The position numbers were made by a program, and so were the translations under genes. From positions 1 to 32,000 of the forward strand of contig JAWCFL010000013.1 of NCBI GenBank assembly GCA_038858525.1: 32,000 nucleotides of DNA, written 5' to 3'. The notes below the pieces were generated by a model that saw nothing but the letters and a program-made list of their open reading frames with translations, was not told the origin of the DNA and did not search any database. Source of the DNA: Candidatus Jordarchaeales archaeon (lineage in GTDB: Archaea; Asgardarchaeota; Jordiarchaeia; Jordiarchaeales; Freyrarchaeaceae). Shown piece by piece: positions 30,704 to 32,000 of the stretch. How positions within the stretch are numbered: the stretch's first letter is position 1; each line of letters begins with the position of its first letter.

Positions 30704-31278
30704 TTTAGGAGGGGGTCTAGGTACTTGAGTGGAATCGGTATGTTGGCGAGAAACTGGCTTATCTCATGCTCCTCTTTGCCCTCCTCCTTAAGCCTCCTGT
30801 AAACGCTATCGACGCTCTCAAAAAGCTCCCAAGGATAGATGACCCACGCGTCAGTAATCTCACCATAGTAGTCAGGGGTGACAACGCTGAAGGGTTTAAG
30901 ATGAAGGGTTGCAACCTTGAGGAGCCCTACGCCTCTCTCCTTAAGGTGCCTCATGACCACACGCAGAGTGTGCCCGCTGTCAGCAACATCATCACATAGG
31001 AGCACGTTCTTTCCGGCAACGTCGACAGAGACAGGCTGAGTGACCACTGGCTCCTCCATTCGCTCACCCACATCAGAGTAAAACTCCACAACCACAGAAG
31101 CAACTCGCCTAATTGAGAGGAAGTCGGACATCATGCGTGCAACAACCCATCCACCACGCGCGATGCCGACAATCAAGTCGAACGACAGGCCACTAAGCAG
31201 AATCATCTCAGCCACTTTCATTGCCAGAAAGTAAACCTCATCCCAGGTCGGAGCTATGAACTTCAATGAAGAAGACAC
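30673..31278 (-). CDS. Type I phosphoribosyltransferase (purine PRTase-like)
   Basis: IVGIARGG, PRPP-binding LLCDDVADSGHTL, ATLHLKP, WVIYPWE. Confidence 0.88.
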   Translation of the reverse strand: MSSSLKFIAPTWDEVYFLAMKVAEMILLSGLSFDLIVGIARGGWVVARMMSDFLSIRRVASVVVEFYSDVGERMEEPVVTQPVSVDVAGKNVLLCDDVADSGHTLRVVMRHLKERGVGLLKVATLHLKPFSVVTPDYYGEITDAWVIYPWELFESVDSVYRRLKEEGKEEHEISQFLANIPIPLKYLDPLLKWRKVWGGSR

Positions 31279-31351
31279 AGCTCAACCCTCCACTGAAAAA
31301 ACGCTCCCCGACGATATAAAAACGTTCACCTTAAAAAACGCGAAAATTAAA

Positions 31352-31509
31352 TGGTGGGCGGGCCAGGATTCACACGCGCATGCCAAACGCATGTGCGACT
31401 TGAACCCGGGGCCTCCGGCTCCCGAAGCCGGTCATATGCAGTGAAACATCCAGTTTCACCGAGTCATACCATGTTCCCCGCCTCATATGAAGCTCTAGAC
31501 TACCCGCCC
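31352..31509 (-). tRNA. tRNA-Pro (anticodon CGG) with three introns and encoded CCA
   Basis: Acceptor stem GGGCGGG/CCCGCCC-A-CCA; anticodon arm CCGGC-TT-CGG-GA-GCCGG (anticodon 31424-31422); T arm CCGGG-TTCAAG|T-CCTGG; D arm GTCT...TGAC. Removing 31369-31398 (30 nt), 31433-31462 (30 nt) and ~31474-31494 (21-23 nt) gives a 75-77 nt cloverleaf. Confidence 0.9.
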
Positions 31510-31542
31510 TTTCTCCTAAGAGGATAAGCGACCAGAAACACC

Positions 31543-31557
31543 TAATTAAATTTTCTC
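31543..31557 (-). promoter_or_regulatory. BRE + TATA box, putative tRNA-Pro promoter
   Basis: The minus strand reads GAGAAAA-TTTAATTA, 34-41 nt upstream of tRNA position 1. Confidence 0.55.
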
Positions 31558-31631
31558 CTTTAATCTGGCATCAAACCTAGTTACTCGGGCCTCCTGCTTC
31601 CAGTAGCGCTTTGCTCTTAACGTTTTATCCT

Positions 31632-32000
31632 TTACCTGACGAAAATTTCCTTCGTCTTTTTCTCCATGTCCTTTAGAACTCCTTTGTCAAGGTTTTTGGG
31701 GTTGTAGTACTTGGCTCTTGAGCAGTCAGGAAGCCAGTTGTCTGGCACCTTGAAGGTTTTGCCTCCAGCCGGTTGAGCTTGAACAGGGACCGACTGGGGA
31801 GGCGTGTACTCTTCAGTGTGAGTTGCAGTGTAGCTTCTCGCTGTTGCTGGCGGCATCGTTACAGGGGATCGGACCGGGGAATGTGCTGGAGGTGATCTTC
31901 CCTCCCTCATGCTTTCCAGCACACTTGAAATTTGAAGGCGTAAGTTAGCCTGCGGCGCTGTGTCAAGGGCTGATTGAGGCATTGATGCTTCAAGCTCGCT
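31632..32000 (-). CDS. C-terminal part of a hypothetical protein extending beyond the window
   Basis: The frame is open from the window edge (SELEAS before the called Met). Pro/Ser/Thr/Ala-rich linker followed by KTFKVPDNWLPDCSRAKYYNP. Confidence 0.6.
   Translation of the reverse strand, partial: SELEASMPQSALDTAPQANLRLQISSVLESMREGRSPPAHSPVRSPVTMPPATARSYTATHTEEYTPPQSVPVQAQPAGGKTFKVPDNWLPDCSRAKYYNPKNLDKGVLKDMEKKTKEIFVR

What the first reader, a model, noticed from the sequence alone, without database searches (positions are those of the whole stretch)
31352..31509. tRNA-Pro(CGG) interrupted by three non-canonical introns and none at 37/38
Seen: the 25/26 intron (31462-31433) forms a textbook bulge-helix-bulge (BHB), with central helix TATG/CATA, bulges AC|T and TG|A, and a 9-bp inner stem. 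The 59/60 intron (31398-31369) has the same geometry with a relaxed central helix TTCA/TGTG and bulges AG|T and AA|T. A D-loop intron near 15/16 (~31494-31474) has a GCTTC/GAGGC stem and only a weak BHB. About half of the 158-nt gene is intron. Known: triple-intron tRNAs are described mainly from Thermoproteales and need a broad-specificity splicing endonuclease. Inference: if the host is Asgard, this implies a permissive EndA and possibly ordered splicing; standard tRNA scanners may miss or misannotate the gene.
Basis: partly seen in the sequence, partly recalled or inferred. Interest (0 to 1): 0.75.

Follow-up and report, generated by a model that had tools for sequence, protein, structure and literature searches.

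The report
Triple-intron proline tRNA gene, Asgard
This is a real proline tRNA gene of a hot-spring Asgard archaeon (Jordarchaeia) that is broken by three small introns, but such heavily interrupted tRNA genes have already been described for this lineage, so it is an ordinary member of a known oddity.

Summary
Observation confirmed. ARAGORN accepts the spliced form. ARAGORN and Rfam both miss the gene as it stands.

Four related genomes carry the same gene with the same three inserts. Exons are nearly invariant (6 of 77 columns vary) and inserts vary freely (51 of 84), with compensatory changes in the hairpins. The 25/26 motif is a strict bulge-helix-bulge; the other two are relaxed.

No other CGG tRNA was found in the 92.7%-complete assembly. 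The genome encodes a two-subunit, Crenarchaeota-like EndA with the broad-specificity loop, plus RtcB ligase.

The host is Asgard (Cand. Jordarchaeia). Novelty is low. Valentin-Alvarado et al. 2024 list tRNAs with up to four introns in the sister family. A 2026 preprint reports about two inserts per tRNA gene in Jordiarchaeaceae, up to five per gene, hidden D-arm inserts, and (alpha-beta)2 EndA. This scan has also noted BHB introns on other pieces of this genome.

Splicing itself is not shown at the RNA level.

The parts
31543..31550 (-). TATA-like box TTTAATTA, preceded by a purine-rich GAGAAAA (BRE-like). It lies 34-41 nt upstream of mature position 1, which implies a short 5' leader for RNase P to remove.
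   Evidence: Read from the sequence. The element (A)AAATTTAATTA / AAAAATTAATTA is kept at the same distance in all five orthologous loci. Its promoter role is inferred.
31495..31509 (-). Exon 1: tRNA positions 1-15 (acceptor 5' strand GGGCGGG, U8 A9, D-stem 5' strand GTCT, A14 G15).
   Evidence: Invariant in five genomes.
31474..31494 (-). Intron 1 (15/16, D loop), 21 nt. Hairpin GCTTC-ATAT-GAGGC followed by GGGG, which pairs with T13-C12-T11. Bulges AG|A and AA|C. Relaxed BHB without an outer helix.
   Evidence: The hairpin covaries (2 pairs change on both sides). The GGR register is kept in 11 of 11 Pro genes of the order, whereas RNAalifold's alternative register is broken in 3.
31463..31473 (-). 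Exon 2: positions 16-25 (CATGG TA of the D loop and the D-stem 3' strand TGAC).
   Evidence: The spliced D arm GTCT-AGCATGGTA-TGAC matches uninterrupted D arms in tRNA-Val genes of the same genome and in metagenomic tRNA-Pro(CGG) genes L053 and L071.
31433..31462 (-). Intron 2 (25/26), 30 nt. Strict hBHBh': central helix TATG/CATA, bulges AC|T and TG|A, 9-bp inner stem, 3-bp outer helix. TATGAC is repeated at both borders, so the mature sequence does not depend on the exact cut within it.
   Evidence: 4 inner-stem pairs change on both sides; the minimum-energy fold shows the motif; 0 of 20000 shuffles.
31399..31432 (-). Exon 3: positions 26-59 (A26, anticodon arm CCGGC-TTCGGGA-GCCGG with anticodon CGG and G37, variable AGGCC, T-stem 5' strand CCGGG, T loop TTCAAG).
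   Evidence: the only CGG anticodon arm in a tRNA context in the assembly.
31369..31398 (-). Intron 3 (59/60, T loop), 30 nt. The T stem serves as the outer helix. Central helix TTCA/TGTG (3 of 4 pairs), bulges AG|T and AA|T, and a 9-bp inner stem with one A-C mismatch.
   Evidence: The G004 ortholog has 4 of 4 pairs (TTCG/CGAG) in this register.
31352..31368 (-). Exon 4: positions 60-76 (T60, T-stem 3' strand CCTGG, acceptor 3' strand CCCGCCC, discriminator A73, encoded CCA).
   Evidence: CCA is encoded in all five orthologs.
31333..31351 (-). T-rich tract (TTTAATTTTCGCGTTTTTT) directly after CCA. Likely an archaeal oligo-T terminator.
   Evidence: Sequence only. Inferred.

Best explanation
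This is the functional, single-copy tRNA-Pro(CGG) gene of a Jordarchaeia (Asgard) archaeon.

Transcription probably starts from a TATA-like box about 38 nt upstream. It yields a pre-tRNA in which three short hairpin introns sit at 15/16, 25/26 and 59/60.

In the precursor each intron pairs four of its last six bases with the exon bases just upstream of its own 5' cut. This gives two 3-nt bulges on opposite strands, 4 bp apart. In doing so, the two D-arm introns hold both D-stem strands in these helices.

A two-subunit (alpha-beta)2 splicing endonuclease of the Crenarchaeota type cuts in the bulges, and RtcB joins the exons. RNase P trims the leader.

Shown here: gene anatomy, conservation and covariation, and the presence of the enzymes. 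Inferred: that cleavage and ligation take place, and the exact cut at 15/16.
For: In-silico splicing gives a 77-nt cloverleaf that ARAGORN accepts, with G15-C48, G18G19, U33, G37, A73 and CCA. The same holds for four orthologs and for the Pro(TGG) paralogue. A blind anchor-plus-BHB search recovers the same introns.

Orthologs in G001-G004 have all three inserts at identical sites. Exon columns vary in 6 of 77 positions and intron columns in 51 of 84 (Fisher p = 5e-13). Within the genus the figures are 1 of 77 and 35 of 84.

In the named precursor structure 95% of cells are paired, against 34-53% when partners are slid. Eight pairs change on both sides, and 0 of 500 shuffles reach the observed values. 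The single-sequence fold has z = -4.4.

The D-loop register is kept in 11 of 11 Pro genes of the order. Six differences listed for a related strain's DNA contig (run X15) inside the gene all fall in introns (4 further differences in the laid stretch were not shown).

No second CGG tRNA was found in the assembly.

EndA alpha (G000:C3, 191 aa) best matches the A. pernix alpha subunit 3P1Z_B (E 1.6e-48). It has the Y-H-K triad, and its loop IRKPKT aligns to VEKPRG (K44/R46). The second paralogue (C43, 198 aa) has Ala in place of the catalytic His. RtcB is present.

Published censuses describe the same phenomenon in this class.
Against: There is no RNA evidence of the spliced form, and no joint was seen in the one RNA run that holds part of the locus.

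The 15/16 and 59/60 motifs are relaxed (3 of 4 central pairs; no outer helix at 15/16). Relaxed motifs arise often by chance (the preprint's section 2.4).

RNAalifold prefers a register shifted by one for both relaxed central helices.

Only five orthologs are available, four of them from one genus, so covariation counts are small and the sequences are not independent. The assembly is 92.7% complete, so an intact copy on missing DNA cannot be fully excluded.
Confidence: 0.85

Rival explanations
1. Only the 25/26 and 59/60 inserts are true introns. The 21-nt D-loop hairpin is either not removed by EndA (leaving a mature tRNA with an enlarged D loop) or is cut at other bases than AG|A and AA|C.
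For: The D-loop motif has no outer helix, and only 3 of 4 central pairs form, two of them G-U. An alternative cut shifted by one base on each side also passes my cloverleaf filter. RNAalifold picks another register. The 2026 preprint notes that tRNAscan-SE leaves such D-arm inserts inside the 'mature' tRNA.
Against: A D loop of about 30 nt would be without precedent in a working tRNA (my knowledge, not tested here). The cut AG|A...AA|C restores GTCT-AGCATGGTA-TGAC, which is what uninterrupted D arms look like in tRNA-Val genes of this genome and in L053/L071. It also restores G15 opposite C48. The GGR-AA register after the hairpin is invariant in 11 of 11 genes, while the alternative is broken in 3. 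The hairpin covaries. A. pernix EndA with the same loop cuts D-loop and bulge-helix-loop introns (PMC3241643).
Confidence: 0.08
2. The locus is a decaying tRNA pseudogene, and its inserts are junk rather than spliced introns.
For: Standard tRNA finders do not recognise it. No spliced RNA was observed.
Against: Exons are nearly invariant across two genera while the inserts diverge with compensatory changes. The promoter-like box and the encoded CCA are conserved. It is the only CGG tRNA found. The whole tRNA set of this genome is equally invisible to standard tools: only 5 Rfam hits above cut-off in 2.09 Mb.
Confidence: 0.03
3. The inserts are recently mobile elements (intron transposition between tRNA genes, as proposed for Thermoproteales) rather than old, vertically inherited introns.
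For: The three Pro isoacceptor genes share insert positions: 15/16 in CGG, TGG and GGG, and 25/26 and 59/60 in CGG and TGG of this family. A TATGAC direct repeat flanks the 25/26 intron.
Against: None of the three intron sequences has another copy in the genome. The CGG and TGG introns at the same site are not alike in sequence. The 15/16 insert is shared across both families of the order, while 25/26 and 59/60 of Pro(CGG) are limited to this family, which fits vertical descent after old gains. The preprint found no general route by copying (its abstract).
Confidence: 0.04

Closest known systems
Multi-intron tRNA genes of Asgard Freyarchaeia/Atabeyarchaeia (Valentin-Alvarado et al. 2024, PMC11291895) and of Jordiarchaeaceae/Freyrarchaeaceae (Goswami et al. 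2026, bioRxiv 10.64898/2026.10.13.758758)
   Same: Same class of organisms. Introns are short (about 20-30 nt), non-canonical, and concentrated in the D arm and T arm. Genes carry 2-5 inserts, D-arm inserts escape standard annotation, and two EndA paralogues are present. The published Freyarchaeia tRNA-Pro(CGG) has the same 15/16 D-loop insert.
   Different: In Freyarchaeia, Pro(CGG) carries only the D-loop insert. The 25/26 and 59/60 introns occur only in the Jordarchaeum-side family (genera g1 and g2). This particular gene is not discussed in the text of either paper; I could not check their per-gene tables for this genome.
Multiple-intron tRNAs of Thermoproteales (Sugahara et al. 2008, cited in PMC11291895; reviews PMC4090602 and PMC4033280)
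   Same: Up to three BHB or relaxed-BHB introns per gene at positions such as the D loop, 25/26 and 59/60, removed by an (alpha-beta)2 EndA with the Crenarchaea-specific loop.
   Different: A different phylum. The intron load per gene is higher in the Asgard lineages: about 2.0-2.4 against 1.54 in Pyrobaculum calidifontis, according to the preprint.
Aeropyrum pernix EndA (alpha-beta)2, PDB 3P1Z/3AJV (Hirata et al. 2011, PMC3241643)
   Same: The alpha subunit here aligns over its full length without a gap in the specific loop. It keeps the Y-H-K triad and the K44/R46 equivalents. A second paralogue lacks the catalytic His.
   Different: The second subunit here is closer to the M. jannaschii homotetramer subunit (1A79, E 3e-31) than to crenarchaeal beta subunits. 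Assembly and substrate range are untested.

Membership tests
Archaeal tRNA gene with BHB-type introns (multi-intron tRNA) | Removing the inserts yields a canonical cloverleaf with conserved tertiary nucleotides | tested here: met
   ARAGORN calls the 77-nt product tRNA-Pro(cgg). The same holds for four orthologs.
Archaeal tRNA gene with BHB-type introns (multi-intron tRNA) | Each exon-intron boundary lies in a 3-nt bulge of a bulge-helix-bulge, or a relaxed HBh'/BHL motif | tested here: met
   25/26 is strict (4 central pairs plus both flanking helices). 59/60 and 15/16 are relaxed (3 of 4 central pairs; 15/16 has no outer helix).
Archaeal tRNA gene with BHB-type introns (multi-intron tRNA) | Intron structure maintained by selection (covariation), with exons more constrained than introns | tested here: met
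   Eight pairs have changes on both sides and 95% of cells are paired. Exon columns vary in 6 of 77 positions, intron columns in 51 of 84.
Archaeal tRNA gene with BHB-type introns (multi-intron tRNA) | Spliced RNA, excised or circular introns observed | tested here: inconclusive
   One RNA run holds the upstream part of the locus with intron 1 unspliced. No joint was seen and there is no cover downstream of 31463.
tRNA-Pro | Anticodon NGG with G37, plus the A73 discriminator and G1-C72 typical of archaeal tRNA-Pro | tested here: met
   Loop TTCGGGA, A73 and G1-C72 are read from the sequence. That these features serve as ProRS identity elements is from my knowledge, not tested here.
(alpha-beta)2 splicing endonuclease with Crenarchaea-specific loop | Two distinct full-length EndA paralogues, one with the catalytic Tyr-His-Lys and one without | tested here: met
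   G000:C3 (191 aa) has Y, H and K. G000:C43 (198 aa) has Ala at the His position.
(alpha-beta)2 splicing endonuclease with Crenarchaea-specific loop | Specific loop with the conserved Lys (K44 of A. pernix) in the catalytic subunit | tested here: met
   YGQPLGIRKPKTPQF aligns without gaps to YGQPLDVEKPRGADF, so K44 aligns to K and R46 to K.
(alpha-beta)2 splicing endonuclease with Crenarchaea-specific loop | Heterotetramer assembly and cleavage of non-canonical introns | not tested
   Needs biochemistry. I ran no further search on a textbook pair.
Split or circularly permuted tRNA gene | Exons on separate loci or in permuted order | tested here: not met
   All four exons are collinear and contiguous within 158 nt.

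The most novel reading that the evidence does not exclude
The weak D-loop motif is not a substrate of EndA, and the 21-nt hairpin stays in the working tRNA-Pro (and, by extension, in many Jordarchaeia tRNAs). These archaea would then translate with tRNAs that carry an extra helix in the D loop. A milder variant is obligate ordered splicing, in which the strict 25/26 site is cut first and the relaxed sites only afterwards.
Probability: 0.06. Interest if true: 0.7.

Novelty: new member of a known kind. Interest (0 to 1): 0.25.

Why it matters
The gene is a clean, well-conserved example of the extreme tRNA fragmentation of Jordarchaeia and Freyarchaeia. It shows in practice that ARAGORN and the Rfam tRNA model leave such genomes almost without tRNA calls, with 5 Rfam hits in 2.09 Mb.

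It is also a convenient substrate for the experiment that is still missing for Asgard archaea. One 158-nt transcript carries one strict and two relaxed motifs. It could be used to measure the substrate range and cutting order of an Asgard (alpha-beta)2 EndA.

It does not change what is already published about the phenomenon.

Tried and rejected
ARAGORN, plain on the window and in intron mode on the whole genome, and Rfam at gathering and at E<=10: none calls a tRNA at the locus.

ARAGORN's other 'tRNA-Pro(cgg)' on C21 is a mis-read class II tRNA with introns. Its 'tRNA-Pro(ggg)' on C27 looks spurious.

Only L028, L053 and L071 were useful, so I could not enlarge the ortholog set.

My genome-wide census (T-arm and acceptor anchors, BHB removal, cloverleaf filter) recovered only Pro(CGG), Pro(TGG), a Met(CAT) and a few doubtful loci. 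The anchors are too strict for this genome, so I give no census of my own and rely on the published ones.

BLAST of the three introns against the genome found no second copy.

RNA evidence: run X14, a metatranscriptome from one study, has a contig that covers 31463-31800. That stretch is the upstream gene, leader, exon 1, unspliced intron 1 and exon 2. The contig stops at 31463, the last base before the 25/26 intron, with no loose end. A second X14 contig covers 31100-31236, and nothing covers 31237-31462. No joint across any intron was reported. A stop at a splice site could reflect cleavage or a branch in the assembly graph. With a single study and contigs only, it is not counted as evidence either way.

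RNAalifold's alternative registers for the two relaxed central helices were considered and rejected. For 59/60, the corresponding perfect TTCA/TGAA candidate, cut by the bulge rule, does not give a standard T arm, and G004 breaks a pair of RNAalifold's register. For 15/16, three genes break it.

Full report
**What is there.** On the minus strand, window 31509-31352 reads as a 158-nt unit that starts GGGCGGGTAGTCTAG and ends CCTGGCCCGCCCACCA. ARAGORN finds no tRNA in the whole window. Rfam finds nothing at gathering thresholds, and even at E<=10 it gives no tRNA match on the locus.

The product has:
- a 7-bp acceptor stem
- D arm GTCT-AGCATGGTA-TGAC
- anticodon arm CCGGC-TTCGGGA-GCCGG
- variable region AGGCC
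- T arm CCGGG-TTCAAGT-CCTGG
- discriminator A73 and an encoded CCA

Introns make up 81 of 158 nt, and the anticodon loop is intact.

**Is it more than chance?** The motif alone is not enough. Inside this one gene, 80 boundary pairs pass a relaxed BHB rule of at least 3 central pairs and at least 3 inner pairs. The 2026 preprint makes the same point about relaxed motifs. At the actual boundaries, shuffled introns reach the observed score as follows:

| Intron | Shuffles reaching the observed score |
|---|---|
| 25/26 | 0 of 20000 |
| 15/16 | 31 of 20000 |
| 59/60 | 267 of 20000 |

A blind search also recovered these same three introns for this locus. It used only a T-arm and acceptor anchor, BHB candidates and a cloverleaf filter. 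It gave one alternative for the D-loop cut, shifted by one base on each side.

**Comparative evidence.** A DNA search of the 11 genomes of the order found the gene in all three other genomes of the genus (G001-G003) and in a second genus of the family (G004). It also found a paralogue, tRNA-Pro(TGG), in G000, G001 and G002. All have inserts at the same three sites, and all splice in silico to tRNAs that ARAGORN accepts.
- Across the five CGG orthologs, 6 of 77 exon columns vary against 51 of 84 intron columns. Within the genus the figures are 1 of 77 and 35 of 84.
- On the precursor structure I named (acceptor, three central helices, three intron hairpins, T stem), 95% of cells pair, against 34-53% with slid partners. 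Eight pairs change on both sides, and no shuffle of 500 reaches the observed values. The sample is five sequences, four from one genus, so these counts are modest.
- The single sequence folds with z = -4.4, and the minimum-energy structure shows the 25/26 bulge-helix-bulge and the other two hairpins.
- A related strain's DNA contig (run X15) differs from the window at six listed places inside the gene, all in introns (four further differences in the laid stretch were not shown).

**The three motifs.**
- *25/26* is a strict hBHBh' motif: TATG/CATA, bulges AC|T and TG|A, a 9-bp inner stem and a 3-bp outer helix. TATGAC is repeated at both borders, so the product is the same wherever the cut falls within the repeat.
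- *59/60* uses the T stem as outer helix. TTCA/TGTG gives 3 of 4 pairs in the genus, but G004 has a perfect TTCG/CGAG in the same register. RNAalifold prefers TCA/TGA, shifted by one. The corresponding perfect TTCA/TGAA candidate, cut by the bulge rule, does not give a standard T arm.
- *15/16* is the weakest motif: a 3-5-bp hairpin, then GGR pairing with T13-C12-T11, a G10-purine mismatch, bulges AG|A and AA|N, and no outer helix.

For 15/16, the register holds in 11 of 11 Pro genes of the order, including the Freyarchaeia CGG and TGG genes and a metagenomic gene. RNAalifold's alternative is broken in three of them. The predicted junction restores a D arm identical in form to the uninterrupted D arms of three tRNA-Val genes of this genome (GTCT-AGC(T)GGTYA-TGAC). 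It is identical in sequence through the D loop to two metagenomic tRNA-Pro(CGG) genes, L053 and L071. I therefore accept 15/16, with a residual uncertainty of one base.

**Host and machinery.** The adjacent phosphoribosyltransferase finds 'Candidatus Jordarchaeia archaeon isolate QC4' at 76% identity, with the same tRNA upstream. That MAG is the same-genus genome G001: loci L001 and L012 carry identical sequence. The one-contig genome G005 of the same order is the published complete Freyarchaeia genome, because the coordinates of its Pro(CGG) and Pro(GGG) genes in Supplementary Data 4 of PMC11291895 match.

The assembly (2.09 Mb, 63 contigs, 92.7% complete) has two EndA genes.
- The C3 protein (191 aa) matches the A. 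pernix catalytic subunit 3P1Z_B at E 1.6e-48. It keeps Tyr, His and Lys, and its IRKPKT aligns without gaps to VEKPRG, the Crenarchaea-specific loop. The K44 of that loop is required for cutting D-loop and bulge-helix-loop introns (PMC3241643).
- The C43 protein (198 aa) has Ala in place of the catalytic His.
- RtcB is present.

This is the (alpha-beta)2 pattern. Assembly and specificity are inferred.

**Single copy.** BLAST of the spliced sequence and a scan for CGG anticodon arms find no other tRNA-Pro(CGG). Two ARAGORN calls elsewhere are artefacts. The whole genome gives only 5 Rfam tRNA hits above cut-off, so the invisibility of this gene is the rule here, not a sign of decay.

**History.** The 15/16 insert is shared by the CGG, TGG and GGG genes across both families of the order. 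Freyarchaeia Pro(CGG) has only that insert. The 25/26 and 59/60 introns of Pro(CGG) are thus confined to the Jordarchaeum-side family. The three introns have no other copy in the genome, so nothing points to recent transposition.

**RNA.** One metatranscriptome (X14) holds part of the locus. One contig covers 31463-31800 with intron 1 unspliced and stops at the last base before intron 2. No contig joins across an intron. With one study and contigs only, I do not count this. It is listed under Tried and rejected and as a lead for read-level mapping.

**What is known.** Valentin-Alvarado et al. 2024 (PMC11291895) reported that 92-95% of tRNA genes in Atabeyarchaeia and Freyarchaeia have introns, often non-canonical. 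More than half have several, and their table lists genes with three and four.

Goswami et al. 2026 (bioRxiv 10.64898/2026.10.13.758758) extended this to 90 Asgard genomes, including Jordiarchaeaceae. They report:
- 2.0-2.4 inserts per gene, with up to five in one gene
- 30% of inserts missed by tRNAscan-SE, mostly in the D arm
- two EndA paralogues in most genomes
- no RNA data

The present gene is therefore one more member of a described kind. Other follow-ups of this scan have also reported BHB introns in tRNA and protein genes on other pieces of this same genome. I did not test those claims.

**Verdict.** This is a real, functional-looking, conserved triple-intron tRNA-Pro(CGG).

Noticed in passing
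L014:1398-1548 (-), = G005:C1 about 1501690-1501840: In the published complete Freyarchaeia genome this locus splices to a 77-nt tRNA-Pro(TGG) that ARAGORN accepts. The inserts are at 15/16, in the variable region (gene positions 70-93) and at 59/60. No Pro(TGG) is listed for that genome in Supplementary Data 4 of PMC11291895, so the gene seems to have been missed there.
   Followed up: partly
L028:622-804 (+), metagenome contig Ga0116200_10026611: A tRNA-Pro(TGG) with five BHB-like inserts, at gene positions 16-31, 43-64, 74-88 (inside the anticodon, 34/35), 100-127 and 141-168. Intron makes up 109 of 183 nt. ARAGORN accepts the spliced product. This matches the 'up to five in a single gene' of the 2026 preprint.
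   Followed up: partly
G000:C1:76213-76357 (+), locus L016:1502-1648: The tRNA-Pro(TGG) paralogue of this genome has three inserts at the same sites (18, 21 and 31 nt) but with unrelated intron sequences. Its 3' end reads ATTA instead of ACCA, so CCA is not encoded there, unlike in G001 and G002.
   Followed up: partly
G000:C21:30825-30950 (-): ARAGORN's 'tRNA-Pro(cgg) with a 36-nt intron' is in fact a class II tRNA (long variable arm) with several inserts. It shows how intron-mode scanners mis-assign anticodons in this genome.
   Followed up: no
window 31632-31982 (-): A 116-aa ORF with no Pfam match lies directly upstream of the tRNA on the same strand. One RNA-library contig (X14) runs from beyond it through the tRNA leader into exon 2. 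Read-through or co-transcription is possible, but a contig does not show a single transcript.
   Followed up: no
window 31510-31570 (-) and the orthologous loci L010, L012: The roughly 35 nt between the TATA-like box and tRNA position 1 (GGTGTTTCTGGTCGCTTATCCTCTTAGGAGAAA) is almost unchanged in G000, G001 and G002, although neighbouring intergenic DNA diverges. This conserved leader has no explanation so far.
   Followed up: no
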